Below are positions 5,836 through 64,000 of a stretch of 64,000 bases of DNA, piece after piece. Every line of letters starts with the position of its first letter. Within the stretch, counting starts at the first letter, position 1. Below the pieces are notes generated by a model. It was given only the letters and a program-made list of their open reading frames with translations, was not told the DNA's origin and did not search any database. The DNA comes from Podarcis liolepis (taxonomy: Eukaryota). The stretch lies in assembly GCA_965112155.1 (NCBI GenBank), contig OZ218098.1. One strand, written 5' to 3'. Both the position numbers and the translations under genes were made by a program.

Positions 5836-5965
5836 TCACAGAATTGCAGAGGTGGAAGGGACAAGGGTTCCAACCCCCTGCAAAGCAGGAAACTTTTGCC
5901 CAACATGGGGCTGGAACCCATAACCCTAAGATTAAGAGCCTCATGCTCTACCAACAGAACTGTCT
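5836..5965 (-). mobile_element. tRNA-Lys(CTT)-derived SINE with CR1-like tail
   Basis: Minus strand reads ggtagagcatgaggctcttaatcttagggttatgggttccagccccatgttgggcaaaag..ttccacctctgcaattctgtga. Confidence 0.8.
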
Positions 5966-6036
5966 AGGTATGGTTTGTTTGCAGAACCAAAACATCAAGC
6001 CCTTTATTGACGCTCTCAACATAGCTTACTCTACAT

Positions 6037-28099: not shown

Positions 28100-28410
28100 C
28101 GCGGAGGCGGCGGCAGAGGCGGCAGGAAGAGCCCCAGGGCGCACACCGGAAGCAGGCCCGGCAGAGGCCGGATGCAGCCTGGGATCGACCAACCGCGGCT
28201 CGAGAAAGGGGCAGGGCGCGACGGGCTGTACCAATCGCGGCTCCCCGAAGCACAAAGGGAGGGCGGGGTGAGGAGAAGTCGGGGAGCAGAACGGCCCTGA
28301 GAGCGAGGAGAGCGGCAGCCGGCGTAGACCCTACAAGAGTGAAGAGGAGCACGCGGCGTCCAGCTTCCGAGTCGATTGTAAAGGCCGCTTTTAGCCTCTG
28401 CCGGAGCGCA
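27420..28410 (-). promoter_or_regulatory. CpG island / DLST promoter with GC boxes and duplicated CCAAY-CGCGGCTC motifs
   Basis: Very high GC and CpG density around DLST exon 1; GGGCGGGG at 28261; accaaccgcggctc (about 28188) and accaatcgcggctc (about 28230). Confidence 0.85.
28025..28099 (-). CDS. DLST: DLST exon 1 ([25 protein letters not shown])
   Basis: ATG in CpG island; Arg-rich mitochondrial presequence; CAG|gtacc donor. Confidence 0.88.
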
Positions 28411-31605: not shown

Positions 31606-33039
31606 ATGAATGGGAATCCTATTGCTGATCATTATGATTACAGACCTACTTCTGGACATGCTGGTGGACAGAAAGGAGACACTTGTGTTGAAAGAGACGG
31701 TTTCTTTTCTCCTGCTTCTTACTATGCATCCATAATATCACATCTCCTCAGCCAGCCAGAACCTAACGGTGAGCTAGATCCTAGCTTTCTTCTCCCTTCC
31801 TCACAGAAAACTGAACTGCTGTTCCAAAGTGCTGGGAATGGCACATGTTCCAGGGAAGCCTCCTCCCCGAGTCCTGACTGTGGCTTGATTAACTCTAGTC
31901 AGTTCCATAATGAACACCTGCAAGCTAAGAGGGCCAGGGTGGAAAATATTATCCGGGGAATGAGCCTGACACCAAACCCTATAGTGCCTGGTATCCAAGT
32001 GGAAGGAGGTCAAAACCATTTAGAGAAAGTAAAGGGGAGCTATAGAGAGAACAAGAGAAAGCAGAGAGTTCCTCAGCAGCAAAGTCTACATGATATTTCT
32101 CTGGCAAGAGCTGGCCAAAATGGTATTCAAGTGGAAGAATGCCTCCAGCTGAAAAAACAGCTCCACATTTTGCAACAGCAGCTGAAGCAACTACAAGAGA
32201 GGTTTGTTCAGTCTCATGAGCTGAATGATTCCAGTCCAAGCCAAGGAAGCATGGAGAAGACTTTGGGTTTGCTGAAGGAGAAGTTTGGACAAAGCTTGGA
32301 TAGCGGTAGTCAAGGCGTTTCAAGTGGCCATCGCAGAGATCGTTTTTGTAGAAGCATCCCCAAGACGAGAGGATCTGAATGGTCAGAGAAAGGAACTAGA
32401 ACAGCAGATTCGCATAGTCTGACTTCAGAAGACAGAGCTCTTTCAGAGATATTGAAACGTGAGTTAATACAGGTGGTGACACAGGCTGTGGACTCTGTTT
32501 TGAAGCAAGTATTGCCTGAATCCCTAAACCCTCAGCCCCATCTGCCAAGTAGTCCCACAGTAACAGCCTCCTCTACTGGGAGAGAATTTACAGGTGCTGC
32601 AGGAAGTGCATCCAGCAAATGGCTTCCTAAGATTTCTTCCCATAAAAGCACCATGTCGGTAGCCACAGAAAAACCTCCAGCTTTTCCTTCTTATCCCATC
32701 CGCTCAAAAATGGAGAGAAAACCCTGCCAAGTACCACCCGTGAATTATCCCTTGGTCATGACCTCTGAAGTTCAAGGAAACAGTATTTTTGGCCAAATGC
32801 TGCTATGTGGTCAGAATAGCCCTTGGGGCAGCCCGTCTCCAAAAATGGTCCCTTCTCCAGAATGCTTAGATAGGCCATGGCGACCAATCAAACTGAAGTC
32901 ATCTGTCATGAGACACCAACGATGTCCAACACCCTACAAATCTGCTGAAATTGAAAGTTTGGCCTCTCTTCCAGCTTCAGATTCAGAGTGGGCCGAAATG
33001 CAGGCTTTGATGGATGGAATGTACTTCCCTTCAACACAT
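31606..33039 (+). CDS. PROX2: PROX2 first coding exon (478 codons)
   Basis: Within ORF 31606..33090; ends at the U12 donor ATATCCTT (33040); upstream acceptor tttgtag at 31573 implies a non-coding upstream exon. Confidence 0.92.
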
Positions 33040-36000
33040 ATATCCTTCCTATATCATCAGTATCTTGCTTCAGCTGTGAGTGGCTGTTAGTGGTAGGCAA
33101 ATCTGTTCATTGCAGCTTCTCCCAGTTTCTAACTATTTTTTTCAGTTTCCATTGGGTTGTTTTTTTTATCCTCAGGAAAATTCACCAGCCTTCCAATGCA
33201 TATTACTTCTAACTATAATGCACTTTTTTTGTTTCCCCCCACTAATACTGGCACCATCCTTACTGAGATTCAGACATCCAGTCAAAAGTATTTTATTTCA
33301 GGAGAGAAAGCAGCATCAGAGGCATTGCAGCAGGGGAAAACGGGTTATGCACTCATCACCCCACTCCAAAATACATCCTCCAAAAACAGTTTCTAACCAA
33401 ATGACCCCAATGAGATTTTTGTTTTTCATACACTTGACTGTAGCATTTCATATCACATTGAGCTAGCACATTTGAACAGCAAATAACGTATTTTGACATT
33501 CTGTAACCAGAATCTTACAGGTTTCCCTCATTACATGAAGAAGCAGGACAACTCTGCTACTTTATGTTCAGGATAAATTTATAGAACTTAATAAGAAGTA
33601 AGTAAAAGTTTATCTCATTCATCAAATGGCTCTGCCCTTGCAGGAATGGAGCAATAGAAACATTAACACATGAGGGTTTTTGTATGTAACTTTTATAGAG
33701 GTGACCAAAATAGATTATTTACTCCCACCCTGCTAAAATACCCAGGAAGGACCTAGTTATTGGCTGACGCGAGCAAAATAATAGCAGAAATACTTGTTAG
33801 ATTTCTCTTTTCTGCTGCAAAGGCCCATAAAGAGATTTTGTTAATTTAATTGTATCTTGGATTGTTTATGTCCTTAGTTTATATGTAAGTACCATATATT
33901 TCAACTTGGTACCATATATTAGCAACAGCAATGTAACAATAGGCTAGGCTAAAAAAACAGACTTTGCAGCTCATCTAGCTCTGCCTAGTCCTCCTTAGTA
34001 AAGGCACTGTCTCTCTTAAACATTCCCTGTCAAATTAGCCCATAAAAGCCTGACCTCACTATCTGAACTATTCAAGATTCAACATTATGTTAAGGGCTCT
34101 CATCATGCCCAAACATTTAGAGAGCTATCACACCTTTAAGAGCTGTGCAGAAGGAAAAATTATCTCAGGTGAAGCTTCCCTCACCTTGCAAGTAAAGACA
34201 CACCTAAACAAATTCTGCCTTCCTTTTAGGATTGGTTCTTTTAGAATCTGGATCTGGGAAGCTTAACTGCACTTCATGTGCCTATGGAACAAGAGAGATT
34301 TCCAGAAAAATAAATGCAAGTCAAACAAGTGACTGGTACAATGCAGGATCTCACCCTAGGTCAGATACTACTCCTGATGAATAACTCCTGACCTAGGGTG
34401 AGATCCTGCATTTTAATAGCTTTGATTGTTGAGAAAACTAACAGGGAGGATAGAACCTGCACTCAATAACTTGACTGCTCAGCTTCCTCCCCTTCCTCTT
34501 GCTGTGAAGTTGATTCCTGCACGCTACAATTAATAGACATGGAATCACTGCCATATACCGTAATGACAACAAGAAACAGCATTTGGCAGCAATAGCTCTG
34601 CATCAGGAGTTGGCAGCCCTTAAACATTGTTCAGCAATTGTTTAGCAAGGTAGAGTGTTACACAGCCCCAACTAATGTTAGCTAGGGGGACTGGGAACAG
34701 CAAGCAACTTTTTCCTTGACTCCGAATTACATCCAGGAAGCTTTAACCCCTGGCCATCTGAAAAAGGCTAAGCTGATGTTCTTCTTCTCTCGCTATCCCA
34801 CATCTTCTCTGCTGAAAACCTACTTCCTAGACGTCCAGGTAAAAGTATTCAGCTTTTTGTATGCCAAAGTTAATGTATAAATATGTGCAGATGTTAATTT
34901 ATTACAGACCAGGCTTTGTTCCAAGAAACTGAAAGAGGAAGAAAGGTATTGCAGGAAAGAAGTACTAGCTATCAAATGTGCATACCAGTGTGTACAAAAT
35001 AATTGTAACTGAGGGGTGGGTGAGGGGTTGTTTGTTTGTTGTTTTAGTATGTATTTGTGTTTTTATATTGTATTTTTATGTTGTGAAGCAGCCCGAGATC
35101 TACAAATGAAGGGCTGTATACAAATTTAATAATTACAAAATAAATAATAATTTTAGACTGTACCACTCCTGCCTGTCTGCCTAGTCTCCAGCCTCTCATT
35201 TGGATAAAATGTTTCATTCTGGAGTTTGCTTGTTTATTGGTGAGCTATATTAGGTTCAACTTTGATGGAGAAAGATGGAATGTAAATAATTAAAATAATA
35301 CATTGGATTGGATCAGTACATCCTCCGTAAGGTTGTGAGTGTCAGGTTGGAATCAGAGCATACCACAAGACAGTTCAGAATTTCCCTGACTTTTCTCATG
35401 AGTGAAGCGCAAGGCCTCTTTGGAGATCAGTGGTGGAGCGTTGGTGGTCCCTAGTGACAGTTTACAGAGCAGCAACATTATTATGCTTATTCACAATGGA
35501 TGGCGGGGGAGGGGAGGAATGGATGGCCCATTGGTGCTATAGACTGATAGAGGCATTGTTTTCCACAAGAAGTTGAAGGAGGAATTAAAACAGAGGTTTG
35601 ACCTGGTGTTTGATATAATGCATATATTCCTGGTAAAAAATCTGGCAGTGCTTATCTTTGTGGGCAAGACCTACTAATATGTTTGCTTGAAAGTATGTAT
35701 TGAAGGGACGCGGGTGGCGCTGCGGGTTAAACCACAGAGCCTAGGACTTGCTGATCAGAAGCTCGGCTGTTTGAATCCCCACGATGGGGTGAGCTCCTGT
35801 TGCTCGGTCCCTGCTCCTGCCAACCTAGCAGTTCGAAACCATATCAAAAGTGCAAGTAGATAAATAGGTACCACTCCCGTGGGAAGGTAAACAGCATTTC
35901 TGTGCACTGCTCTGATTTGCCAGAAGCGGCTTAGTCCTGCTGGCCAGATGACCCGGAAGCTGTACACCAGCTCCCTTGGCCAATAAGGTGAGATGAGCAC

Positions 36001-37386
36001 AGCAACCCCAGAGTCGGCCACGACTGGACCTAATGGTCAGGGGTCCGTTTACCTTTACCTATGTATTGATTAGCAAAGGACATGTTTTTCCCTGCAATTA
36101 TTCTTTTAGTTCCAGGGTGGTTAACATGGGCCTCTCCAGGTATTGTTGAACTCCAACCTCAGCCAGCATGTCAGGGATGGTGGGAGATGTAGCGTAGAAA
36201 AATCTAGAGGATCACATCAGCCACACAATCTGTCTGGGAGCTTCTTCCCATTGCCCCTTTCTTTGAAAGTGACTTCTGCTCCAAAATAAAGGGGCAAGGC
36301 GGAACCTGCTAATTAAGAAGACAAGCGTCTGCATTAGGAGAGTCATATGCCCATGACTCACTGTTTCTGCTCATGTGTTCATGCTCCTTCACCCATGGGT
36401 GTTTTCAATGTTATGCCTCCAAAATGTGTCTCAATATTTCCCATCCACACAGGTGGGAGGTGCTTGTTAGGATGTACATATCCAAGAATACCATGTTACA
36501 TGCTCTTTCCATAGTTCACCCGCTGCATCACCTCCCAGCTCATCAAGTGGTTTAGCAACTTCCGTGAATTTTATTACATCCAGATGGAAAAGTTTGCCAG
36601 GCAAGCCGTCTTGGAGGACGTCACAGATCCCAGTGACCTCACTGTTACCAGGGACTCTGAGCTCTTCCGGATCCTCAATGTGCACTACAACAAAGGGAAT
36701 GATTTTGAGGTGAGGTTACACTTGCTACATAGTTTTATTTTGCCTGTTGTGGCATTTTTCTGAGAAAATGCCCTTTTTACCAGAACTAAATAACTCCCTA
36801 AAACATAAGGACATAAACAGTGAAACAGAACACTTTAGGCTGTGCAGAAATGTAGTCTTTGAAGCACACTGGGGTTGTTGTTTTTCACAATATGCTTTTG
36901 TACATTGCAGGTGGCAATTGTACATGCCTTCGTACAATAATGTCATCTAAAGTGGCAGTGTGTACATCTGTCTGTACACACAGATCAACATGTTTTTTCC
37001 AAACTAGTGCACAACAATGTTATTTATTCCCCTCTCTTCAATTAGTGTTTTAATATAAGTAAGCAAGCAAGCAAACAAACAAACCTTTTTTGCAGGACAT
37101 TCAGGGCATTCACTTTGATGAAGATCAGTCCACCCTAAGCAGATGTCAAATTGACCAGTGGCTGCTTCATAGTCCTAACTTTCTTCTTCTCTGTCTGTAG
37201 GTTCCTGATGGTTTCCTGGGTGTTGCAAGTCTAACCCTTCAGGAGTTCTTTAGTGCTGTCCGGGCAGGGAAGGACTCGGACCCGTCCTGGAAAAAGCCGA
37301 TTTACAAAATAATTTCCAAACTAGATAGTGGAATACCAGATGCATTTAAATCCTCCACTTGCCCCAAAGAGCTGAACCAAGGTTAA
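31606..37386 (+). CDS. PROX2: Prospero homeobox protein 2, complete CDS, 640 aa. Exons 31606-33039, 34731-34838, 36515-36709, 37201-37386
   Basis: PROX motifs [17 protein letters not shown] and KRKQRVPQQ; homeo-prospero domain [70 protein letters not shown]. Position between DLST and YLPM1 indicates PROX2 rather than PROX1. Confidence 0.95.
33040..34730 (+). other. U12-type (minor spliceosome) AT-AC intron of PROX2
   Basis: 5' site ATATCCTT at 33040; branch site TTCCTTGAC at 34712-34720; terminal AC at 34729-34730; phase-0 join ..STH|IQEAL.. restores the homeodomain. Confidence 0.92.
34731..34838 (+). CDS. PROX2: PROX2 exon ([23 protein letters not shown]...FLDVQ)
   Basis: Homeodomain start; CAG|gtaaaa donor. 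Confidence 0.93.
35705..36060 (+). mobile_element. Sauria SINE, full length
   Basis: gggacgcgggtggcgctg head; acctttacct tail; TSD atgtattga (35695-35703, 36061-36069). Confidence 0.9.
36515..36709 (+). CDS. PROX2: PROX2 exon ([21 protein letters not shown]...NDFE)
   Basis: Recognition helix; canonical splice sites. Confidence 0.95.
37201..37386 (+). CDS. PROX2: PROX2 last coding exon (VPDGFL...ELNQG*)
   Basis: End of Prospero domain; TAA at 37384-37386. Confidence 0.95.
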   Translation, partial: VPDGFLGVASLTLQEFFSAVRAGKDSDPSWKKPIYKIISKLDSGIPDAFKSSTCPKELNQG

Positions 37387-39337
37387 TGCGCAGTTATTAT
37401 GGCAACTGATACATGTGACTATAAAACAAAGCTATCACTTGAGGAAGAGGCTGGCCAATGTCAACATCAAATCTCCACAACATACCAATGTAATGATTGA
37501 GACTGGACTTTGTAAAGAGCGCATAGTACCATCAATAGGCTGATTATTTTATGGAGTAAAGTATACGAAAGGCACTATTCTGGGGTGGGGAACCTCCCCC
37601 TTTCCATCTGCTGGTATTCCTAAATGGCCACTATGTCCATTGTCAGTTCTACATACTGTGTTACTCTCATTATGTCCGTGTTCGCTGGGGCTGATGGAAG
37701 CCGTAGTCCAAAACATCTGGACCATGCTAGGCTGATGAAGGGTGACCTACAATTTGATCCAGGGTTCACTAACCTGGAGCCCGCCAGGTTTTTATTTATC
37801 ATATTTATACACGACTGTTCTGCCAAGGGACCCAACTTCTGCTGGCTCCAGCCAGCATGGTCAGTAAGAAGGGATGCTGGAAGCTGTAGCCAAGCAATGT
37901 CTGGATGTCACAGGTTAGTTCACCTTGCCAACCCCCCTACACAAAAAGCTAAGCTTTCCACAAGCCCAACTGTATCCTCTTATGTTTGCTATTTGACTAA
38001 TCTCAATCCCCCATTTTGCAGAAGCTCCAAACCCAAAACTGTGTGCCTGTAAATAAACTTTCGTAAAAGCTTCTGTAAACCTTCACAAGAACTTCAGTTT
38101 TGCCTGTGAGCAGCCCACAGCCTTATGCGTGTTTACTCAGAGGTAAGTTCCATTGTATTCAATGGAGCTTTGCTCTTATTAAGTATCGATAGGACTGCAA
38201 CCCTTAAGTAACTTAGCACTGCTTTTCTTATATTCGAATGTAGCTTGTTATTAGTCCCGTCTGTGTATTTCTAATGTGCCCCTTGGTGTTGTCAGGCGGA
38301 ATAATTTTGAGCACTCTTCCTCAGATTCTCTGGAAGTTGCAGTAAACATACTTTAAGCCCATTAGAAGTATCCGGTTCGATCCCTTAGGTTTCGCTGACA
38401 TTATATACTGTAGTTTCAGTTTAGCATTCCTAAATTGTATGGATTTGGTGCCCAGTTTATCATAAAATAAACAGGATGAGCAGGATGTTATTATGAAGAA
38501 GCAAGAGGTTGTCTGAGATGTTGTGAAATTAGGGACAAATAAAAAGGAATAAAATGCACAAAATGCACTAACCTTGCACTCAGTTATTAAATCTGATGCT
38601 TAAGCATTCCACATTCCAGTGATAGGTCCTTCTATCATTAAAACAGTCGGCAAAGTTTAGCCAGTACGTTGTGGCCTGCCGGAGTTCTTCTTTCTCCCAT
38701 GTTCTAGCCAGACATGTGTTTATACATTCTTCTGGCTTCCGTCCAGAGAGGCTGAGGCAATCCAGTAAAATGGGTTGCATATAAATAATAAAATTATTAA
38801 TATAGACACTTTTAGCAATTTGTTTCCCTTAATCCCCAGTTATATGGATAACCTGGTCAAGTGGAAACAGACTGAGATGTGCTCAGTGAAGCTGTATTCA
38901 CTGTTTCCTTCAGTTGGTTAGCTATGTCTGAAAGAATTTACAAACATGTAAAGTAAAAAGGGTAGTTTTCTGCTACCTTTTGAGGGAAATATATACAGAA
39001 AGGCAAAAATGGCTACTCTCTTCCCTCTGCATAGACAACATATTGTTACTTCCTTCCCACTTCTCTGTGTAGAAGGCGATTGAGACATTAACCCAGGATT
39101 GGTTTCCTTTGGAAAAAGAGACCACTGGAGGCTTAGGGCATTTTGTTCATATTTGAGTTTATTTACAAATACACAAAGTAAGCACAGGTGGTCGTGGAGG
39201 GAAACAGCGCAACACCCGCCTTCCACTTTTAGCACAGCTTGTTTCCCTCGAACTTTCCTTCGGCTATGAGCGGCGAGCGCGGCGCTGCGGAGCCCACCGC
39301 GAACTCTGGGCAGGAGGCGGCGGGGAAGAGAGGCGGA

Positions 39338-39584
39338 GGGGCGGAGTTTGCTAGCTGCATGCAGATGAGGCACCGCCGCGGAGCATTGTGGGGGATCACG
39401 AACCGGGGGGCGAGGCGAGCACGGAGAGATCGGGGCTCCGTTAGACTGGGCCGGTAGATGATGCACGACTGCGGGCGAGCGTAGGGAAAACGAGGACAGA
39501 ACCCTGGTGCGGGGCTTGGTATGCTCGCTGTGCTTTAAAGAGGTGCGGGAGGAGGGCGGCCCGGGTCCTGTCGAAGCAGAAAGC
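39338..39584 (+). promoter_or_regulatory. U1 copy 1 promoter: GC box 39338-39346, octamer ATGCAGAT 39359-39366, SPH/ZNF143 motif about 39376-39393, PSE about 39525-39543
   Basis: Motif identity and spacing (DSE about -226, PSE -60 to -42) match vertebrate Pol II snRNA promoters. Confidence 0.85.
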
Positions 39585-39748
39585 ATACTTACCTGGCAGG
39601 GGAGACACCTTGATCNNNNNNNNNNNNNNNNNNNNNNNNNNNNNNNNNNNNNNNNNNNNNNNNNNNNNNNNNNNNNNNNNNNNNNNNNNNNNNNNNNNNN
39701 NNNNNNNNNNNNNNNNNNNNNNNNNNNNNNNNNNNNNNNNNNNNNNNN
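39585..39748 (+). ncRNA. RNU1: U1 snRNA gene copy 1 (nt 32 onward N-masked; end inferred from the canonical 164 nt)
   Basis: ATACTTACCTGGCAGGGGAGACACCTTGATC is the U1 5' end; intact PSE and DSE upstream; 3'-box-like AACAGA right after the Ns. Confidence 0.9.
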
Positions 39749-40110
39749 NNNNNNNNNNNNNNNNNAACAGAATTAATGCCATTACTAAGCTTCTGACTTC
39801 TGTTTTGCTCAACTTTTCGGTTGCTTGTTTGTGTGGAGAGCATTCAGAAAAACGGCGTTTAGTCAGCAGGAAAAACTTGTGTAATGAATGCGAGTTGCTA
39901 GGAATCACAAAAGGGAAAAGGGCTTCCCGCAAGAGAGACACCAGGTTGGCTGCTGTGAGAAGAACGTTGCCCCTAGTGGGTCTTGGGTCTCAACTGGAAG
40001 GGCTTTTTATCTTACATTGTAATAGTAACATGCCTGTTTTCCACAGGCCGCCATACGAAGTTGTCCGGCCTTCATATATATGAATGTATTTTATATATAT
40101 ATATATATAG

Positions 40111-40840
40111 TGCCTAGGGAACAACTTGCACCTTAATTATCAGCAAGGCAAAGGAGATGGTGGTGTACTTTCGGAGGAAGAGAGGAGAACTAGCCCCGCT
40201 GTACATGGGGAGGGCTGTGTGGAGAGAGTCTCTTCCTTTAAATTCCTAGGAGTTTATCTCAGTGAAGACCTTACTTGGAAAATAAATACACTCAGGTGGT
40301 TAAGAAAGCCCAACAGAGATTCCATCTCCTCAGAGTATTACAAAATAACGATGTCAATCAACATTTGATGATCATCTTCTACCGGTCAACAATAGAAAGT
40401 GTCCTTTCCTACTGCATCACAGTGTGGCACGCTGATTTGACACCAACTGATAGGAAGTGCCTACAGGGGGTGGTGAACACAGCACAAGATATTATGGGCT
40501 GTCCCGTGAATCCGCTGGATGAAATAGCGGAAGAACGTTGCCTCAGGAGAGTGAGGAAAATTCTCAGGGATGATTCACACCCTGGCCGGCACTTTCTTGA
40601 TCTCCTGGCCTCAGGCAGAAGATACAGAAGCATGATTAGTCGCACCAACAGGGTAAAGAACAGCTTCTATCCGTGGGCTGTTAGGCTGCTGAATGAAAAG
40701 ATAACAACAGGGCAACTGACTTTCGGGTTTGGTGAGTGTGCGTCAGTAAACGAGGGGAATTAAGGCTAAGAGAGCTGAGTGGGGGGTGCTCGTGTAATCT
40801 CACTGTATACAAGTTGTACAAGTGACAATAAAGTCTTTCA
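40111..40840 (+). mobile_element. 5'-truncated Rex1/Babar-clade LINE (RT C-terminal region, frameshifted) between U1 copies 1 and 2
   Basis: ERVSSFKFLGVYLSEDLTW / KKAQQRFHLLR..FYRSTIESVLSYCITVW..LASGRRYRS..RTNRVKNSFYPWAVRLLN; AATAAA near the 3' end. Confidence 0.85.
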
Positions 40841-41527
40841 AATATGTGCTTCTCCGGAGACAACGGCTTTCCAGCAGCGCTATCCTACGGCGTTCATGGA
40901 ACCAGCAAGAGTGCAGAGGAACTACTGTAGACGTTCAGTATTGTTCAGCTAAAAGAGGTTTATTTTCCATGTTGCTGTCACTTCCAGATTATTTATTCTT
41001 AGTGGGTTTTCACCGTTTCCCCACGACCCGGGGGTTTCTTTTTAATCCTGAGGCAACCGGTCATGTTCGTGTGGCTTGTCTTCTCTGCCACTCTTCTGCC
41101 TCTGTTTTGTCCAGTAGGTTCTCGTGAGAGTGGCTCTAATTGCTTTCTCTGTGATATTTTGTTAACTATAATAAGTTTTAGGTTTTTAAAATTTGTCCTG
41201 AGCAAACTCAGTAACTGAGGGGAGGGCATGGGAGGAGCAGAGAGGAAAAGAGGCCGGAAAAATGGGCTGGGAATGTGAGCAAATACTGAAATCTATTTCT
41301 CCCGCCCTGTCTCCCGGGCAGTGGAGCCAAAGCGTGCCTGGTCATCGCCCTTGCAAGCCGGGTGCTCGGCAGCGCGAGGACGACATGGCGAACTAATAAA
41401 CGCTGCCTTAATCGAACTTCTCTTCATCCTCCGCCGGCGCCCTAAAAACACAGTGGCGACCGCGGGGAGTCAGCAGCTCCACCCCCTCTTTGGCCGGAAC
41501 GCGGCTTGGCAGGGAAGAGCGCGAGGA

Positions 41528-41774
41528 GGGGCGGAGTTTGGGAGCTGCATGCAGATGAGGCACCGCCGCGGAGCATTGTGGGGGATCACAAACCGGGGCG
41601 CGAGGCGAGCACGGAGAGATCGGGGCTCCGTTAGACTGGTCCGGGAGATGATGCACGACTGCGGGCGAGCGTAGGGAAAGCGAGGACAGAACCCTCGTGC
41701 GGGGCTTGGTACGCTCGCTGTGCTTTAAAGAGGTGCGGGAGGAGGGCGGCCCGGGTCCTGTCGAAGCAGAAAGC
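41528..41774 (+). promoter_or_regulatory. U1 copy 2 promoter (GC box, octamer 41549-41556, SPH, PSE about 41715-41733)
   Basis: Near-identical to copy 1 promoter with the same spacing. Confidence 0.85.
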
Positions 41775-41938
41775 ATACTTACCTGGCAGGGGAGACACCT
41801 TGATCNNNNNNNNNNNNNNNNNNNNNNNNNNNNNNNNNNNNNNNNNNNNNNNNNNNNNNNNNNNNNNNNNNNNNNNNNNNNNNNNNNNNNNNNNNNNNNN
41901 NNNNNNNNNNNNNNNNNNNNNNNNNNNNNNNNNNNNNN
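41775..41938 (+). ncRNA. RNU1: U1 snRNA gene copy 2 (3' part N-masked; end inferred)
   Basis: Same 31-nt U1 5' end, then 149 Ns, then AAACAGG (3'-box-like). Confidence 0.9.
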
Positions 41939-42127
41939 NNNNNNNNNNNNNNNNAAACAGGAAAGGGAATGCTTACTGTTAGGTTAAAGCTGGGTTGTTT
42001 TCTGCTAGTTTTTATTTTAACGCAGGAAGTGTGTAAGTGGGAAAATATCACGACCGCAATGAACAAGATGCAAGAGCTGTCATGGGTTCTTCTCTGTAAA
42101 AAAATTTTTTTTAACATAATGTGAGTT

Positions 42128-42165
42128 AAAGGTAAAGGGACCCCTGACCATTAAGTCCAGTCGCA
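42128..42165 (-). mobile_element. Short Sauria SINE 3' fragment
   Basis: aaaggtaaagggacccctgaccattaagtccagtcg matches the SINE tail at 44210. Confidence 0.7.
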
Positions 42166-42524
42166 CCTAATAAAGGATTTTAGGTATACTAAAAAACAGA
42201 CTAGGGCTGAGCGATACCTGGTTTTCAGCGTCATAACATCAGTTAACATTCCGATATATCACAATGTCTGAAATTGGGGATCAGGCATGAGGATGTCTAT
42301 TGCAATTGGCTGCCTTGCTCTCTCCCATGAGGAGCGATAGAATGCTGTGTATTGCTAGGTTAGAATCGTCTTCCCGCAAAACCGATTTTGGCCAATATAT
42401 TAAGAAACAGCACAGCGCTAAAACAGATTTAAAAAAACTATTACCATGCTAGAGACAGTCCGCGGTTAAATAAAAGCACATGATAACCAGCATTTTCTTT
42501 TCTATTTTNNNNNNNNNNNNNNNN

Positions 42525-42688
42525 NNNNNNNNNNNNNNNNNNNNNNNNNNNNNNNNNNNNNNNNNNNNNNNNNNNNNNNNNNNNNNNNNNNNNNNNNNNN
42601 NNNNNNNNNNNNNNNNNNNNNNNNNNNNNNNNNNNNNNNNNNNNNNNNNNNNNNNNNGATCAAGGTGTCTCCCCTGCCAGGTAAGTAT
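42525..42688 (-). ncRNA. RNU1: U1 snRNA gene copy 3, inverted (3' part N-masked; end inferred)
   Basis: Reverse complement of the U1 5' end at 42658-42688; AAAATAGA after the Ns on the minus strand. Confidence 0.9.
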
Positions 42689-42935
42689 GCTTTCTGTTTC
42701 GACAGGACCCGGGCCGCCCTCCTCCCGCACCTCTTTAAAGCACAGCGAGCATACCAAGCCCCGCACGAGGGTTCTGTCCTCGCTTTCCCTACGCTCGCCC
42801 GCAGTCGTGCATCATCTCCCGGACCAGTCTAACGGAGTCCCGATCTCTCCGTGCTCGCCTCGCGCCCCGGTTCGTGATCCCCCACAATGCTCCGCGGCCG
42901 TGCCTCATCTGCATGCAGCTCCCAAACTCCGCCCC
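42689..42935 (-). promoter_or_regulatory. U1 copy 3 promoter (PSE about 42730-42748, SPH about 42880-42897, octamer 42907-42914, GC box 42927-42935)
   Basis: Reverse complement of the promoters of copies 1 and 2. Confidence 0.85.
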
Positions 42936-44209
42936 TCCTCGCCGCCGCCTGCTGCCCGGAGTTCGAGGTTCGGGAACGCAAGCGGCGGCGGGTGGCCCGG
43001 GTGTAGTAGGCGGTGCTAAAAGGAAAGAGCAGGATACGGGGGCGGGGGGGGGCATGAGTGTGTGAATCCTCGGTGGGAACAGTGCTGGCGTCAGGCTATT
43101 TTGCGCCCTTGACAAGTCTAATTACTTGCCCGCTGAAATAGAAATTGCTCACATCGGTTTTATAAAGCAGCCCTGTTTAGGGATTTTTAAAATGTTTTAT
43201 CTTTTATCGTGTTTTTAATATTCTGTTGTTGTTGTTGCTGCTGCTGTTGTTGTTAAAAAGCGATTGTCTTGCAAAAAAAATTAAAAACACAAAACTTGAA
43301 ACTGCTCATTTTATTTTAAATTGGAAGCGTAAGTGATACAACTACCTACTGTATTATTGTCTTTCTCAAATGCAAAAGAAAGTGTTTCAGTGCACAACTA
43401 ATTGTATAAAACTGCGCCCCTCAAAGGTCAGTCCTGAGTCCCTTTGAGGTCTGCACCCCCTAGGCAACTAACTGCCTGGTTGGCTTAATGATAGCAACAG
43501 CCCTGGGCAGAAAGCCTCTGAAACCTGCAATGGCACCAGGCTGTCTTATGTGTCTTCCTTTTCCCACTCTGAGCCCAGTGGATGGTGTCACGGAGAAGAG
43601 TCTGCTGCCAGACTAGTTGGCATTTCAAAATGACTTTTTCCTTCAAAGGGGGAAGACGGAGTCACAGGGGTTGAGTATTCGCCATACACATTTAAAGTGT
43701 GTTTCCCCCTCAAAGGATTCTGGGAACTCAGGTACCTATTGTCAAACTTAGAAAAAACACCAATACCCAGAATTCTCTGCAGGATAAAATGTGCTTTAAA
43801 AGTACCGGTATGTGTACACAGTTGGGTTCCTTGTGTAACCATTGTGTGCTAATCTTTACCCACAACCATCTGATTTGAATTCAGTATTGCTCAGGCCTCA
43901 CTTAAACTTTGTCTGGGTCTGTCCTAACCCTCTTTTTAAGATTCCCTTTATATTCCTTTGTATGCCAACAACAAAAGGAGGAAGTGTTGGAACAGAGAAA
44001 AGGTAGTTGGGGGGGGGGCAGGCGGCGGTTACCATACCTCCATTATCCTTTCTATGGGGATGGATAATTTGTCAGTGGTAGATGCTTTGCATGCAGAAAG
44101 TCCCAGGTTCACTCCATATGTGTTTTTTTAAAGGATCAGGTAGGTGTTGTGAAAACATTCTGCCACAGTACCTGCAAACCTACTGTTAGATCTGATATAA
44201 GACCAGTTT

Positions 44210-44557
44210 AAAGGTAAAGGGACCCCTGACCATTAGGTCCAGTCGTGACCGACTCTGAGGTTGCGGCACTCATCTTGCTTTATTGGCCGAGGGAGCCGGT
44301 GTACAGCTTCCGCGTCATGTGGCCAGCATGACTAAGCCACTTTTGGAGAACCAGAGCAGCGCATGGAAACGCCATTTATCTTCCCACTGGAGCGGTACCT
44401 ATTTATCCACTTGCACTTTGTGCTTTTGAACTGCTAGGTTGGCAGGAGCAGGGACTGAGCAACGGGAGCTCACTCCGTTGCAGGGATTCGAACTGCCAAC
44501 CTTCTGATTGGCAAGCCCTAGGCTCTGTGGTTTAACCCACAGCGCCACCCGCATCCC
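44210..44557 (-). mobile_element. Sauria SINE, full length
   Basis: Reverse-complement homologue of the copy at 35705. Confidence 0.9.
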
Positions 44558-47500
44558 AATATCACTGTGTACATGTAACTAGACGTTAAGGCTGGAACCA
44601 ATATTTATCTCTGTGGTGGAACAGAAGTAGTTTCCTTTTTAATAACAAATTGGTAGGGCAGTGAGTGGCGGTGGTGGCGAGGCAGTTAGCCTTGCTACTC
44701 CCTGCTTCCCCCCATTTAATCCAGCAAGTTTTGTGGCTCTAACTCCCTTTTTAATGTTTCTGTGTTATTTGTTTTGTGCTGTATTGTAAAAAACCCCTGA
44801 AATCTGATATGATGAAAGGTGTTGCAAAACATTTTAAATAAAGGGCTACATTAATGTGCACGTGTATTGCTGCTTCCATACTAAGTAAACTAACTATCGA
44901 ACACAGTTTGAGGAACATTTTTCATCCCGAGGGCCTCATTCCCTTTGGGGCAATCTTCCAGGGGCCACACGTCAGTGATGGGCAGGGCTAGAGGCGAAAC
45001 TGGGCAAAGCAACAGGTGTAAATTTTACCTTTGTATAGGAGGCTAGTTTCTGCACAGCCTCGCACTTCTCCATCCTGGCAAGCAAGTGGCAATATTAGAG
45101 TTACATTACACATACCAGCCAGGCATAAATACTCAAGGAGTGTGTGAAGCAGGGGTGGTGGCTGTGGAAAGTCTCAAAGTCTTGGAAGCCTTGCCACTGG
45201 CCATGCAGAAAGTTAAGCAGAGCTACCTAAGTGAGCACATCCTGGCAAGGCTGGCATGGGAAGAAATCACATGTTTCTTTTTACCCACATTAAGGCGTGA
45301 CATTATTACCATACTTCAATGGCTCATTTATGAATCAGATTTGAGTCCTACAAGTCATTTTCTGTCTCCCTGTGTTGGGCATTACAACTCATTCAAAAAA
45401 ACGGATCCGAAACACACACGCTGGAGTATACAGAACAAAACAAAAACTGCTTTAAAAATTCTTTATTTTCATAAAATGTACACATAATCAGCAAATGTTC
45501 CTATAAATTAAGCTTAGCAAGTACAGGGCAAGACTGTAGCAAACAATCCTGCTATAACAGGAATAAGAATTAATCTGCAATTTTAGTGAGTGGCTTTCAA
45601 GGAAACACACATTTTCACTTTATTGTATGAAACAAAACAAAGCAATGCAAAGTGCTGTTTTGGGCATGTGCAACAGTTACAAATGACTCAACAGTAGCTG
45701 TTCTTTAGTATTATCTTGCCAGCACCCTACATTTAGGTGGCACAAGAGCCCCTGCTTCACTTGATTTTTTCCAAGTTTTTTTGTTTCTCAAGTTTATTTA
45801 TTACTTACATTTATAAACTACTCACCATCCTGTAAGATGAACCAAGGGCAGATGATGCACAATAACACAATAAATTTAAATGTAATTAAACTGGCACTAA
45901 ACCCATAGAAACAGTCCAGTAGCACCATGAAAAAAAGCTGTACCCACTGAACGACTTCCTAATGCCTCTGTGAAGAGAAATGTTCTAAAATCTATCGTCT
46001 GCCTTCTCACCCGAGGGAGGGGGAGAGTTCCACACACAGCAGCCCCCAAAGGCGGCCTTATCTTGCATCACCACATAGCAAAGCCACACTATTTCCCCTT
46101 CTTTCCTTCCTTGATTTGTCAAGTTCCATAACAGTAGTGCAGAAACACTTTGGGAGTCACAGAAGTAAGAGACACCATTGTGGATAAAGCAACTGCTGCT
46201 TTGTCATGCTTTTTTTGCCAGGTAAGGGTAGCAGGACTAGTTACAAAGAGAATTTTACTGATACAAAAATGAACCAAGGGTCTAGAGTTATCAATGATGT
46301 GGGAGAGGAAAAGGCCTCTTACCTTTGGTGTGTCAGTTGACTTCTAAGTGGCTACAGCATGGTTCAATGTGGGTAAGTCACCTTCTGAACTTTCACTGAA
46401 ACCACTGTCTTCTATACAGTGTGAAGTAGAGTATTCTCTATTGGACTGAATCAGGGTTTCAACCCCTCTTCAGTTGCAAAGGTCATTGGAGGACCTCAGG
46501 CCAATCACACACAAAGTTTAATCTCTTGCACAGGGTGGTTCTGAAGATAAATGGAATAATCTCTGTACTCCTCAGAGGAACAGTGGGATACAAAGGTGAA
46601 GCACACATGCATATAGCGTCAAGGTAAAGGGTCCAGTTTAGTTCCTTAAGCATTTAATGAGCAAAACAATTCTTATTAGAATCCAGTTCCTATTAGAATA
46701 TATAGACTTTCCCCATGGCTTACATTTAAGATACTTTAGATATCTTAATTCTGCCACTGACTGGGAAGATCAGGAGAATGTGTGAATGCATGCACTGCAG
46801 AAAATATTCACATATGAATATTTTGCTAAGCATTTCCTGATTTTAAATTTTAGCCAGCATCTAGGAGCGGTATTTCTTCTTCTTCCTGGGACTAGAGAAG
46901 AATCGCACAACAAACAGTACTGGAAAATGTCGTATTAGTGAATTCACAGTATTTGACAGCCTCTCAGAGTATACCGAAGTATTAGAATAAAGGATAAATA
47001 ATTGAGTAAGAGGGAGAAAACTGCACCAATGAGCTGGAATATCCTTCTGGAGATAACATACAATTTCCTGAGATTACACTTTATTGTGTCCAATATAATG
47101 CAATAGAAGAAACATTACAATGGACATAGTAAGGAGTAAATTAATTGAGATTTCACTTTGCTGTTAGTTAAAAGTAGGCTAGCAAGTCATTCCCAGTTTA
47201 GTCCAGTGTATTCAATTCAGAGAGAAAATGTAAAGTGGATCAATAAAAACTGGGCAAAACAAGAAGTCAAGACTTGTGCAAAGAAGCATCACTGGGCTTT
47301 AGGGCAGATTTAGGTGCACAAATACAATGCAAATACTCAATTGAGTATGGGAACTGCCTATACTGAGGAACACCATGTGAACTGATGTAGTGATGTAAAT
47401 TTCTGCCTAGGACTTGCGCTGTCATGGCTCTTTCCCACATGCAAGCCATCACCTGATGCCGTGATCCTGGACAGACATATATGCATGTATATAAACTCTT

Positions 47501-47734: not shown

Positions 47735-47875
47735 GGGGATAGCTCAATCGGTAGAGCACGATACTCTTAATTTCAGGGTTGTGGGTTCGTGCCCCACGTT
47801 GGGCAAAAGATTCCTGCACTGCAGGGGTTGGACTTGATGCCCCTCGTGGTCTCTTCCAACTCTACAATTCTATGA
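47735..47875 (+). mobile_element. tRNA-Lys(CTT)-derived SINE with CR1-like tail
   Basis: Head close to tRNA-Lys-CTT with A and B boxes, fused to a tail ending attctatga; acceptor stem is disrupted, so not a tRNA gene. Confidence 0.85.
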
Positions 47876-55006: not shown

Positions 55007-55153
55007 TCAGATGTACTTTGTGCGATTGAGGGCTCTCTCAGCAAAATGACCACTTTCATCGGTGATTTTCTCCCAATCAGTTTGTCCCACCACAAAACCA
55101 ATGGCCCTCTTTCTGTCTGCATCTTTTTTTTCTTCAAGGTCTGCCCACCTTAC
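55007..55153 (-). CDS. YLPM1: YLPM1 last coding exon (exon continues as UTR to 54972)
   Basis: ttcgtag acceptor; TGA at 55007-55009; GAG|gtaaga donor at 54971. Confidence 0.93.
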   Translation of the reverse strand, partial: VRWADLEEKKDADRKRAIGFVVGQTDWEKITDESGHFAERALNRTKYI

Positions 55154-56371
55154 CTACGAAGAACACAGCATTGGGATGATACTCAGTTCCAGAAAACGAA
55201 GCGAGACATTTTTGCCAATACTGCAGTTTTGCACTCAGCGAAGGTTTCAGACAACTTAGAAAAAGGGAAGGCAACTTTACTGGTTCAGCATTCTAGAATG
55301 CTCAAAGATTTGCGACCCTCACAAGTTTGCAAGTAGAATTTATTTAGTGTCATATTTATTTATTAAATTTAGATCCCACATCTTCTTCCGAAGAGCACAG
55401 GAACTAGTGCTCTGAATGTGCAAAGCAGGGAGCCTTTCACGAAGATTTTTGCCCCCTCTTCAGCAGATGTGAAACTGTTCACAAGGAATTCGCTGGGGGG
55501 AAAGAGTGAACCTGTCCCAGTTGCTGAGACGAGAGAGATGACATTCCTTGGCTCGGCTCCATTTGCGTTTAGTTTAGTAGTTCAGCAGGAAGGGGATATG
55601 TATAAAGATGCACAACCAAATGTGTGCCTTACTACTGTAAGGGAGTGCAGATGTGATTCTTCCATTTGCATGGCATTACTTTCAGTGGGATGCATGGGAC
55701 AAGGAAACTGCCAGCGCACTGTAGCAAGTTGTCCAGGCAATGAGGATGTGCTCCCTTCCCACCACAATGGATGCAGGTGCGAAAGTGAAAGCATATGTGG
55801 AAAGAAGTGCAGGGTTTTTCCCTGTGTCCTCTCCCAACACCCCCTTTCCAATGTTTGGTACAAAAAAATCAAACATCATTACAATTTGGCCTAGCACTAA
55901 GTGGAACCAATCATTCTTCAGGGAACCTCCATATTTTCCATTTCCCTAGTTATTTACTGTTTCCTCATCTTCTTACTAAGTAGCCTCTGCTTCCTTTAGC
56001 TATAAATGCGTACAACTAAGCTTTGCTATCTCCCCTGTTTTTACAGGAGCATGACGAGATACGGATTTTTAGAAGAAATTTTCAGAAAGAGAAATTGAAT
56101 CTAATGGACATTAAAATGAAAGCAATGGCCCCACAGTGCTTCCAAACATAGATTAGCTGAACCAAACATATAGTTCATGCTTTATGGAAAACCTTCTGGG
56201 TGAGACCCTCTGAGACATTAAACCAAAATTACTTTATTACCCTCTTCTTTCCAGGTTCAGAAGCACGGGTATCATAATCATCTGGAAGCTGAAGATAATC
56301 TTCCATTCTGCTGGCAATTGCTTCCCAATCACGCTTCCTCTTAGCACCAGTTCGCAAGCCATCCAATTTGT
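55007..56371 (-). CDS. YLPM1: YLP motif-containing protein 1 (ZAP3), last two coding exons 56371-56241 and 55153-55007; upstream exons not found in the window
   Basis: DKLDGLRTGAKRKRDWEAIASRMEDYLQLPDDYDTRASEPGKKR|VRWADLEEKKDADRKRAIGFVVGQTDWEKITDESGHFAERALNRTKYI*; the RVRW PP1-docking motif spans the junction. Confidence 0.95.
56241..56371 (-). CDS. YLPM1: YLPM1 penultimate coding exon
   Basis: ttctcag acceptor; AGG|gtaata donor. Confidence 0.93.
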
Positions 56372-59300
56372 CTGAGAACAAACATACAGCCTCAGGGTTA
56401 AAGGGGAAAAGCACACTTGTGTAATGCCCAATACAAACAAGATGCATGGGAATGCTTTCAGAAGGGCAAGCTGCTATCTTATAGCAGTGGTATATGCAAG
56501 TTCTTGGGTGTCTTCATGAGTAAAATGGCAAAACCCATTGTCACTTTTTTGAAGCATCAATCTGTGATGATCCGGGAGAAAAATTTGTGCTGGATAATCA
56601 TACAACAGGCCATATAATGTAGCGATACTTGAACATGTTTTTGAAAATGATACAAATTTAAATACTAAAGGAAGTTTTTAATACCTTGTGTTATACCAAC
56701 GCTGTGGCAAATGCGTACCAGTGCACCTGCCAGATATCTACATTTATTTTTGAAAGACGATAAGACGGCTTTTGAACTGCCTGTGTTGGAGTCAAGGACA
56801 TTTGACTTGTGGTGCAGAGCACCAGCCATAAAAGGAATAAACCCACAAGCAGTTTCTCACTTTCTTCTTTGCTTGAACAGATATGACTGTCCTCATGTGA
56901 AGTTCAGTATTACTGTTCTAATAAACTTTTGGTGTGGTCAAGTTTTTTCTGAACGTTAATCTTTAAAAATGTGTATTATTAGGAAGCAGTTGCTACTGCA
57001 GAGAAGCAAACTGGTATGAATAGGTGAAATTTGTGTCAGAGCTCACAAATATTTTCTATATGCATAATCCCCCCCCCCCCCGGTTCATAATGTACTACAC
57101 AATTCAAATAATGTACTACACAATTTAAAATTATTTATACCAATCTATTTTAAGTGTACAACTGTATGTTTAATGCTATAGGTTTTCTAAATGGTTCCCA
57201 GAGATTGCTATTAAAAATTAGCAAACCCCAAACTATCTGTTTGTAGACAGAGCCTTGCCTTGCCTATTTGCCAGAAAGCAGAAAATATCAATTTAAAGAA
57301 CTGCAAAAATTAGCTTATTTATTAATCCAGTGAACTAAAGAAGCAGCTATATCTAATTTAACATCAAATTACAAAATAATTTTCTGTAAATCAGAACAAA
57401 AATGTTAAGTGTTAAATAAATTCCATTCAAATAATCTAAACGCCATTTTTCTATTTTTCCTGGAACTACTTCAAGCCTGAATGATGATAAATGCTATAAA
57501 ATTTACTCAAAATTATATTATTTGGAAGAATAATATTTATCTACTATTTAGCTACACTTATTTTAACCTATTTTTAAAAGTTAAACATGCTAACTATATC
57601 CAATTAAAAATGGCAGTTACAGCTCCAAAGATACCATCTGCCAATAGTCAGATAAAAGTATTGTTAACATTCTGCAATAATAGAAGTGTTTTGAAATCTG
57701 AGTGTTATGCACAAAATTGCTCAGAAAAAAAAACATTTTCTATCAAAGAGTTTAGAATCATGAATAGCAACAATTAATGTATAAATGCCATGTTAGCAGA
57801 TATCTTTACATATTCATTTAAGATTATAAGATATGAAGTTGGAACTTGTACAAAAGAGGGCCAGGAGCCAAATGTGCTTGTGTATATGTTGCAGATTTTT
57901 CTTTCCATATATCATTCTTCAATGCTGCATAAAAATATGTTCCAGAAAATCACCCCATCTTCAAAGCAACATTGGGGGCTACAGGAGGGGAGAAAATCAC
58001 TGCTGCTCATGCAGCTCCTTGGACACTCATCCAGGAATCAAATTGTTCTGAATGAAAGCATAAACTGGCTTATCTGATCATCAACATAGAAAAGTTTATT
58101 CCCTCATTCAGATGGGATATGAATGGTGTATGCAATAGAAAAGTGAGAAAGAGGTACTGAACAAAAAGTCCTTGTTCATTCAGTGACCTGTTTCATAACA
58201 TTTCGTTCCTTTTCACGGTGTATTTTTAAAATGTGATGTAATTTTAAAAGGTATTATGGGACAATTTCTCCTGCTTATTTCCATTATGGAAGCCCTTCAA
58301 GCTTCTGATCAAATGCCATTCACATTGATATGGATGTATTTTTTTTCTGACCATGATGCGTATGCCTTATACAAATATGCTATAGTGAGTAAACGTCTGC
58401 TTAAGCTTTTTTCTGTAGTTATTCCACAAGCACATCCATGGTACACTGAGGATTCCAATCACTGAGGTTTTTTCACTGCTTTAGTGACCTCGTTGCATTG
58501 TTATATGTGTGGTGTTCTTTCTGTTGCCCGCATTTAGCTTCCTTGTAAAATAAATTTCCACGAGGAAAGAAAAAAGTGATGTGAACCTAAAACTCTGCAA
58601 AATTCAACAAATACTTACCTCAACAAACATAAAATAAACAAAGAACAGCTTAAGATATAAGGTGCCAATAGTGATAGCCATTTCACACATTGTTTTTATA
58701 AAACGAACATTAGATCTATGTTTTCCATGAAGTTTGATTTGGTACCAAAATCATGTGGAAAAAAATGAATGAAAAGTGTCACTGCAAATGTGAAGTTGTC
58801 AGATGGACTCGTGATCACTTAGCAGCAGTTACATTTTTAGCTGAGGTAATAATTCATTTGCAAGCAGGTATGCAAGGAAATTTCAGGTACATAGTATTCA
58901 GACGAATGCCAATGCAGCATTTTATGTTATAGGCAACATTTACTACAATAAAAGGTTTAGCGTTTTACATACACCTATGAATCAGGAATCTAACACAGTG
59001 GCATTTCATTGAGGTTTATGAGGGAGCACTCACAGGGGCAAACATTTGGATCAGATCGCAACATTCAACAGCATTTTGTTTCAGAGCAACTTGGGATGAT
59101 GAGCAGTATTCCTACACTACCTAAATGATTTTCTTTCTAAGTTGCCCTCGTAAAATAACTTTCACCAGGAGGGATGGGAGGTGGGTATGTCAACTATGAA
59201 TATCACTGGCCATGGTACTTCTGGTATGTTAAGTTGAGAATGGGAGGGACTGTGCTTCTGTTCCTATGTGACCAATCAGTTCTGAAAGGTACTCTGCTCC

Positions 59301-63983: not shown

Positions 63984-64000
63984 TAGATATGCTTGTGGTC

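What the first reader, a model, noticed from the sequence alone, without database searches (positions are those of the whole stretch)
39338..42935. Compact three-gene U1 snRNA cluster with intact promoters between the convergent 3' ends of PROX2 and YLPM1
Seen: three U1 5' ends (39585 +, 41775 +, 42688 -). Each has a GC box, ATGCAGAT octamer and SPH motif near -226, a PSE at -60, and a 3'-box-like tail after the masked segment. Known: this is the architecture of active Pol II snRNA genes, and the main human U1 loci are on chromosome 1, not in the PROX2/YLPM1 block. Inference: this is a functional U1 locus that annotation could miss because the gene bodies are N-masked. I recall a tightly linked three-gene U1 cluster from chicken; whether it is orthologous is untested here.
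Basis: partly seen in the sequence, partly recalled or inferred. Interest (0 to 1): 0.75.

Follow-up and report, generated by a model that had tools for sequence, protein, structure and literature searches.

The report
Three-gene U1 snRNA cluster in lizard
A wall lizard carries three closely spaced copies of the gene for U1, a core splicing RNA, each with a complete-looking promoter; this is an ordinary kind of gene cluster, with the small twist that all three copies carry a base also seen in a minority form of anole U1.

Summary
A Podarcis-type lizard window has three identical U1 5' ends at 39585(+), 41775(+) and 42688(-) (Rfam U1 1-31/166), between the convergent last coding exons of PROX2 and YLPM1. 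Each has a GC box, octamer and Staf/SPH site at -247 to -190, a weak PSE match at -60, no TATA at -30, and a 3'-box tail ending at +187/+188. The 252-nt promoters are 96-98% identical, their flanks are unrelated and CpG-rich, and ancestry is mosaic. This fits active Pol II U1 genes homogenised by gene conversion. Bodies are masked and no expression data exist here, so function is inferred (0.85). The claim that annotation misses the locus is unsupported: the three N runs look like a screen applied to this copy of the sequence, not assembly gaps. Human and mouse tables list no U1 near PROX2. Chicken orthology stayed untested. Extra: all copies carry U26, which in Anolis reads goes with a compensatory A39 (6 of 37 entries). 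Verdict: new member of a known kind; interest 0.3.

The parts
39333..39584 (+). Promoter of U1 copy A (-252..-1): GC box 39338-39347, octamer 39359-39366, Staf/SPH 39377-39395, PSE-like 39525-39542, no TATA at -30
39585..39748 (+). U1 snRNA copy A; +1..+31 visible, the rest masked; 3' end assumed from a 164-nt U1
   Evidence: Rfam RF00003 truncated hit; N run; 164-nt Anolis and chicken U1
39766..39771 (+). Visible tail of the 3' box of copy A (ends at +187)
41523..41774 (+). Promoter of U1 copy B: GC box 41528-41537, octamer 41549-41556, Staf/SPH 41567-41585, PSE-like 41715-41732
41775..41938 (+). U1 snRNA copy B, 2190 nt after A, same strand; +1..+31 visible
41955..41961 (+). Visible tail of the 3' box of copy B (1 mismatch; ends at +187)
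42501..42508 (-). Visible tail of the 3' box of copy C (8 of 8 to AARRYAGA; ends at +188)
42525..42688 (-). U1 snRNA copy C, tail-to-tail with B; +1..+31 visible
42689..42940 (-). Promoter of U1 copy C: PSE-like 42748-42731, Staf/SPH 42896-42878, octamer 42914-42907, GC box 42935-42926
39296..39323 (+). 28-nt block upstream of A shared with C (42969-42942) but not B; sign of mosaic ancestry
   Evidence: 25 of 28 identical; 0 of 300 shuffles reach the score
31606..37386 (+). PROX2 coding exons (31606-33042, ~34728-34838, 36515-~36709, 37201-37386); left neighbour
55007..56402 (-). Last two coding exons of YLPM1; right neighbour, convergent with PROX2

Best explanation
These are three true, RNA polymerase II-transcribed U1 snRNA genes of a wall lizard. 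Sp1, Oct-1 and ZNF143/Staf bind the distal element at -247 to -190. SNAPc binds the element at -60 and places TBP on a TATA-less, GC-rich core, so Pol II starts at +1. Integrator reads the 3' box about 11-24 nt past the gene and cuts the pre-U1. The RNA becomes U1 snRNP and reads 5' splice sites with its intact first 11 nt. The cluster arose by old local duplication with one inversion, and the promoter-plus-gene unit is kept nearly identical by short-tract gene conversion plus selection, while the spacers have drifted apart. Shown: the motifs, spacing, identity pattern and CpG state. Inferred from known human and chicken snRNA genes: factor binding, transcription, processing, the integrity of the masked bodies, and gene conversion as the cause.
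For: U1 identity. Distal motifs at identical offsets in all three copies; the three-motif combination occurs nowhere else in 64 kb. The -35..-20 region is GC-rich with no TATA, as expected for Pol II snRNA genes (PMC5493778). 3'-box tails end at +187, +187 and +188; my hand count on human RNU1 flanks gives about +188. So the masked bodies are full length to within about 1 nt if the mask is base-for-base. Window frequencies of the three tail patterns are 54/127048, 357/127064 and 1555/127056, about 4e-7 jointly with three registers allowed each (optimistic, patterns chosen per copy). The tails survive while the rest of the 3' flanks is unrelated (best local scores reached by 87-217 of 300 shuffles). 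Promoter identity is 242, 241 and 247 of 252; the 47 nt just upstream match in only 11-16 positions ungapped. 0 of 13 variable sites fall in the four motifs (P 0.03-0.04). Three of the five CpG-island-like stretches in the window are these promoters; CpG o/e is 1.0-1.1 in the shared part and 0.87-0.96 in the copy-specific 250 nt upstream, against 0.35 for the window. B and C are closest in the core, but A and C share an extra upstream block. No A-rich retrocopy tail or shared distal flank is visible.
Against: 133 of about 164 nt of each gene cannot be seen, so SL2, the Sm site and SL4 are untested. No expression or chromatin data. The PSE match is weak (5 mismatches of 12; a C contacted by SNAP190 R445 in the human structure is T here). 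The octamer has 1 mismatch. The motif-avoidance test fades to P=0.28 if motif borders are widened by a few bases. With three sequences and no outgroup, gene conversion cannot be formally separated from recent unit-length duplication.
Confidence: 0.85

Rival explanations
1. The cluster encodes a separately regulated variant class of U1 (like mouse U1b or human vU1), not the main housekeeping U1; the main class lies elsewhere in the genome.
For: All three copies have U26, where chicken U1-52c, Xenopus, fugu and opossum entries have A26. Anolis has both forms: of 37 entries read (part 12 of 153 of the file), 22 have A26 with U39, 6 have U26 with A39, none has the mismatched pairing, and 9 were degraded, gapped or unclassifiable (hand count). 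The PSE and octamer depart from the human consensus, as variant U1 promoters do.
Against: The Anolis entries are trace reads, not loci. A pair flip in the SL1 stem is likely neutral. No second U1 class was seen in Podarcis. Consensus motifs are human, so departures may be lineage drift. This rival is compatible with the genes being active.
Confidence: 0.2
2. Only one or two copies work; the others are recent DNA-level duplicates decaying in the masked part.
For: The bodies cannot be seen. Copy A has 8 private promoter changes against 2 in B and 3 in C, and B has a mismatch in its 3'-box tail.
Against: No change hits a motif; each copy has its own CpG-rich upstream flank and its own retained 3'-box tail; spacers carry old repeat fragments.
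Confidence: 0.1
3. The copies are retroposed U1 pseudogenes or an assembly artefact.
For: Most vertebrate U1-like loci are pseudogenes (PMC5967550). Every copy contains an N run.
Against: Retrocopies do not carry 252 nt of promoter or a 3' box. The copies differ at 13 promoter sites and have unique flanks, so they are not one sequence assembled three times.
Confidence: 0.03

Closest known systems
Chicken three linked U1 genes (Earley, Roebuck, Stumph 1984, PMC320171; U1-52c = X01093)
   Same: Three linked U1 genes; an enhancer with octamer and SPH motifs (titles of Roebuck 1987 and 1990); 30 of 31 visible nt match U1-52c, including C22.
   Different: The 1984 title says the chicken copies have only limited flanking homology, whereas these promoters are 96-98% identical over 252 nt. 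Position 26 differs. The chicken map position is unknown to me, so orthology is open. Only the title was seen.
Mammalian U1 clusters: human RNU1 at 1p36 and 1q21, human chr14:34.55 Mb pair, mouse chr12:54.7 Mb seven-copy cluster
   Same: DSE-PSE-gene-3' box layout; small clusters in mixed orientation; the chr14/chr12 clusters include inverted copies and are Pol II-bound.
   Different: Different place: none of 3 human chr14 rows and none of 11 mouse chr12 rows lies near PROX2/YLPM1 (about 74.8 Mb and 85 Mb, positions recalled). Spacing here is tighter (0.9-2.2 kb start to start, against 4-14 kb).
Anolis carolinensis U1, U26-A39 form (Davila Lopez 2008 supplement, PMC2396436)
   Same: First 31 nt identical to the window copies (entry 00116, CM score 159.86).
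   Different: Known only as trace reads without map position; the paper's main text never names Anolis. The partner base in the lizard copies here is masked.
Variant U1 genes (human vU1, mouse U1b)
   Same: True genes with recognisable but divergent DSE, PSE and 3' box, and a few base changes (PMC5493778).
   Different: No evidence here for stage-specific expression; the 5' splice-site-reading end is canonical.

Membership tests
U1 snRNA (Rfam RF00003) | 5' single-stranded end that pairs with 5' splice sites | tested here: met
   Matches the Rfam consensus at model positions 1-13; identical in all three copies
U1 snRNA (Rfam RF00003) | Stem-loop 1 with U1-70K loop | tested here: inconclusive
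   5' arm and first 4 loop bases visible and aligned; 3' arm masked; U26 needs a partner change, which Anolis reads show
U1 snRNA (Rfam RF00003) | SL2, SL3, Sm site, SL4; full-length score above gathering (69.5 bits) | not testable with these tools
   Masked; the truncated hit scores 23.1 bits
U1 snRNA (Rfam RF00003) | Length about 164 nt | tested here: met
   Indirect: 3'-box tail ends at +187/+187/+188 against about +188 in human flanks; assumes a base-for-base mask
Active Pol II snRNA gene | DSE with octamer, Sp1 and Staf/SPH sites near -220 | tested here: met
   0, 1 and 2 mismatches for Sp1, octamer and Staf in all copies; combination unique in the window
Active Pol II snRNA gene | PSE at about -60 to -45 | tested here: inconclusive
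   Right place, invariant in three copies, best or tied-best match for four patterns, but 5 of 12 mismatches to the human consensus
Active Pol II snRNA gene | No TATA box at -25 to -30 | tested here: met
   -35..-20 is GC-rich; the only A/T run of 5 or more in copy A's 252 nt lies inside the PSE
Active Pol II snRNA gene | 3' box GTTYN0-3AARRYAGA just downstream | tested here: inconclusive
   3' half present at the expected distance in all three; GTTY half masked
Active Pol II snRNA gene | Transcription, SNAPc/Pol II occupancy, open chromatin | not testable with these tools
   Only indirect: CpG o/e about 1.0
Processed U1 pseudogene | No promoter, A-rich tail, target-site duplication | tested here: not met
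   252-nt promoter and 3'-box tail present
Orthologue of the chicken U1-52a/b/c cluster | Same flanking genes (PROX2, YLPM1) in chicken | not testable with these tools
   No vertebrate genome collection; paper not held; no chicken coordinates in the supplements tried
Variant U1 class (vU1/U1b-like) | Sequence class distinct from a main U1 in the same genome, with different expression | tested here: inconclusive
   Two classes in Anolis reads; not testable for Podarcis

The most novel reading that the evidence does not exclude
Squamates keep two U1 gene classes, A26-U39 and U26-A39. The PROX2-YLPM1 cluster is the long-standing home of the U26 class, held in place since at least the split of iguanians and lacertids (and perhaps shared with the chicken three-gene cluster), with conversion tracts confined to the promoter-gene unit. 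It would be a deeply position-stable U1 locus, where a 23-amniote alignment traced 0 human U1 loci to the mammal or vertebrate ancestor (Table S1 of PMC5967550), and a compact natural test of snRNA concerted evolution and of U1 isoform regulation in reptiles.
Probability: 0.25. Interest if true: 0.55.

Novelty: new member of a known kind. Interest (0 to 1): 0.3.

Why it matters
Every vertebrate needs active U1 genes, and small clusters are the rule, so a lizard cluster is expected. Its use is practical: it pins likely true U1 genes in a lacertid, gives a reptile Pol II snRNA promoter (a candidate for U1/U7-type expression cassettes in reptile cells), and offers three copies with unique 3' flanks that make copy-specific expression measurable. 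It would matter more if the locus proved to be conserved in place across squamates or sauropsids, because U1 loci are thought to turn over fast, or if the U26 form were a regulated isoform.

Tried and rejected
Rfam at gathering score on the whole window found only two weak tRNA-like hits; at E<=10 on 39000-43300 it gave four chance hits and no U1; U1 appeared only when the stretch ended at the mask edge. Folding the 31 visible nt is uninformative (z -0.85) and was not used. The protein atlas gave no usable hit for the last YLPM1 exon; Pfam had no family for two YLPM1 exons or PROX2 exon 1; homology searches settled both genes. No tandem repeats in 37000-46000. Chicken map position was sought and not found: Earley 1984 and Marz 2008 not held; the chicken oocyte supplement is too large to read; the avian ncRNA supplement had no hit for four terms; the spliceosomal RNA supplement has one chicken U1 entry, without a chromosome; the turkey gene list omits non-coding genes. 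Rejected: retrocopies and mis-assembly (promoter, unique flanks); a Pol III promoter (no TATA at -30); assembly gaps or repeat hard-masking as the origin of the Ns (same phase in all three copies, repeats unmasked). ORFs crossing the copies are frames running through Ns and were ignored. The bacterial, phage and plasmid collections were not searched, as they cannot bear on a vertebrate locus.
Full report
Setting. The window is from a lacertid lizard of Podarcis type. PROX2 exon 1 is 96% identical to the Podarcis raffonei cluster representative, 91% to Lacerta agilis and 89% to Zootoca. Three further exons carry the homeo-prospero domain, and the gene ends at TAA 37384-37386. The last two coding exons of YLPM1 lie on the minus strand and end at TGA 55009-55007. 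A donor and acceptor after that stop suggest a non-coding last exon near 54.7-54.3 kb (inference). The two genes are convergent, and the cluster lies 2.2 kb after the PROX2 stop and 12.3 kb from the YLPM1 stop.

The three copies. Identical 31-nt U1 5' ends start at 39585(+), 41775(+) and 42688(-); nothing else in the window comes closer than 11 mismatches. A and B are tandem, 2190 nt apart; B and C are tail to tail. Rfam finds no U1 at gathering score or at E<=10 over the cluster, but calls copy A a 3'-truncated U1 (model 1-31 of 166, E=1.1e-4) when the stretch ends at the mask.

The masks. The window has only three N runs, of 150, 149 and 149 nt. Each starts at U1 +32 and ends at +180 or +181, on either strand. 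LINE and SINE fragments nearby are not masked. Assembly gaps would not share this phase, and repeat hard-masking would have taken the first 31 nt and the repeats too. I infer a sequence screen applied to this copy of the data. Rfam/Infernal scans are routine for lacertid genomes (PMC6381762). The masked letters stay unknown.

Promoters. Using the consensus motifs printed in PMC5493778, each copy has an Sp1 box at -247..-238 (0 mismatches), an octamer at -226..-219 (1) and a Staf/SPH site at -208..-190 (2). Of 10 Staf matches of that quality in the window, only these 3 have both other motifs beside them. The element at -60 has 5 mismatches of 12 to the human PSE consensus and ties with others. 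Against a pattern built from the SNAPc contact positions in PMC9652321 (one position recalled), it has 3 mismatches of 9 and is the best match in B and C and tied in A; with a spacer one base shorter, chosen after the fact, it has 2 and is the sole best in all three. I rate the PSE as probable by position, not proven by sequence. There is no TATA at -30, which points to Pol II.

3' ends. The first bases after each mask fit the 3' half of the 3' box: 8 of 8 in C, 6 of 6 in A, 6 of 7 in B, ending at +188, +187 and +187. Human RNU1 flanks listed in the supplement of PMC5967550 put the same end at about +188 (hand count). Beyond the tails the flanks are unrelated. This argues for full-length bodies and for selection on each 3' box.

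Evolution of the cluster. Over -252..-1 the copies match at 242, 241 and 247 of 252 positions; the next 47 nt match at 11-16 ungapped. None of 13 variable sites falls in the four motifs (P 0.03-0.04; 0.28 with widened borders). B and C are closest in the core, yet A and C share a 28-nt upstream block that B lacks (25 of 28; 0 of 300 shuffles). CpG o/e is 1.0-1.1 in the promoters and 0.87-0.96 in the copy-specific 250 nt upstream, against 0.35 window-wide; three of five CpG-island-like stretches in the window are these promoters. Near-identity even in the spacer between DSE and PSE, with random flanks and mosaic ancestry, fits old duplication followed by short-tract gene conversion. This is inference; three sequences without an outgroup cannot prove it.

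A sequence twist. All copies have U26, a paired position of SL1 in the Rfam model. Chicken U1-52c, Xenopus, fugu and opossum entries have A26. Anolis entry 00116 is identical over all 31 nt and has A39, a compensatory change. In the 37 Anolis entries I read (00131-00167, one part of 153 of a file that is held cut; trace reads, not loci), 22 have A26 with U39 and 6 have U26 with A39. None has the mismatched pairing. Nine were set aside: 3 with A26 and a G or gap at 39, 1 degraded U26 copy, and 5 unclassifiable (hand count). So Anolis has two U1 classes, and this cluster belongs to the rarer one in that sample. Whether Podarcis has the other class is unknown.

Other genomes. No vertebrate genome collection was available. 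In the Ensembl 83 tables of PMC5967550 (I read parts 2, 4 and 5 of the human U1 sheet and parts 43 and 44 of the mouse sheet), human chr14 has 3 U1 rows (34.55, 34.56 and 99.9 Mb) and mouse chr12 has 11 (two at 54.24, seven Pol II-bound at 54.70-54.74, then 77.4 and 93.7 Mb). None is near PROX2/YLPM1 (about 74.8 and 85 Mb; recalled). That paper traced 0 human U1 loci to the mammal or vertebrate ancestor and calls its method conservative. The chicken three-gene cluster exists in print, but its position was not found.

Literature seen. Passages: PMC5493778, PMC2235858, PMC9758055, PMC8470100, PMC4378963, PMC6381762, PMC11602149, PMC2582628, PMC3282657, PMC2114412 (reference list), PMC2396436. 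Named sections: PMC9652321 section 9, PMC5967550 section 5. Supplements: PMC5967550 (6 parts of 400), PMC2396436 (3 searches and 1 part), PMC4378963 (1 search). Title only: Earley 1984, Roebuck 1987 and 1990. Not seen: Marz 2008, and the supplement of PMC11602149, which may hold chicken coordinates. Searches for a description of this locus found none: 'U1 snRNA/PROX2/YLPM1' (22 papers with two terms, 20 listed, none of those with U1), 'U1 spliceosomal RNA + PROX2' (0), 'U1 snRNA + squamate' (0). The library lacks most subscription journals and all genome annotations, so this is weak evidence of novelty.

Verdict. Real feature, correctly located. Most likely three active Pol II U1 genes under concerted evolution (0.85). 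It works like, and by every visible feature is, an ordinary vertebrate U1 gene cluster; full membership awaits the masked bodies. New member of a known kind; interest 0.3. The boldest open reading, a position-stable squamate locus for a distinct U26-A39 class, has probability about 0.25 and would deserve about 0.55.

Noticed in passing
window 40266-40763 (+): 165-aa open frame between copies A and B with a Pfam ALKBH8_N match (E=1.4e-12); reads as the 3' end of a LINE-type retroelement (family assignment recalled, not tested).
   Followed up: partly
window 35705-36057, 44208-44557, 42124-42163: Two inverted copies of a ~350-nt repeat (85% identical), one in a PROX2 intron and one beyond copy C, and a 40-nt piece of its end in the B-C spacer; resembles a squamate SINE (recalled).
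   Followed up: partly
window 5897-5969 (-) and 47740-47797 (+): Two weak tRNA-like Rfam hits (31 and 35 bits), 81% alike; probably tRNA-derived SINE heads.
   Followed up: no
window 23464-25666 and 62970-63985: A GC-rich 118-119-nt tandem repeat (23673-24153) lying among dispersed repeat pieces that recur, inverted, near the window end; looks like a non-autonomous DNA transposon family.
   Followed up: no
window 2465-3751 (+), 13690-14121 (-), 27251-28500: Kinase-like exon and 2-oxoacid acyltransferase exon (weak Pfam hits) and a CpG island; by gene order in turkey these are RPS6KL1, DLST and the DLST promoter.
   Followed up: partly
window 41521-42942: Copies B and C form an inverted repeat (visible arms of 285 nt, 98% identical) around a ~550-nt visible spacer; convergent transcription units under 600 nt apart may collide or favour conversion.
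   Followed up: no
literature: The Pol II-bound mammalian U1 clusters on human chr14 (34.55 Mb) and mouse chr12 (54.7 Mb) lie beside EAPP and SNX6 (recalled), genes that sit in one 2.7-Mb block with YLPM1 and PROX2 on turkey chr5; a local move of U1 genes along one ancestral chromosome is possible.
   Followed up: no
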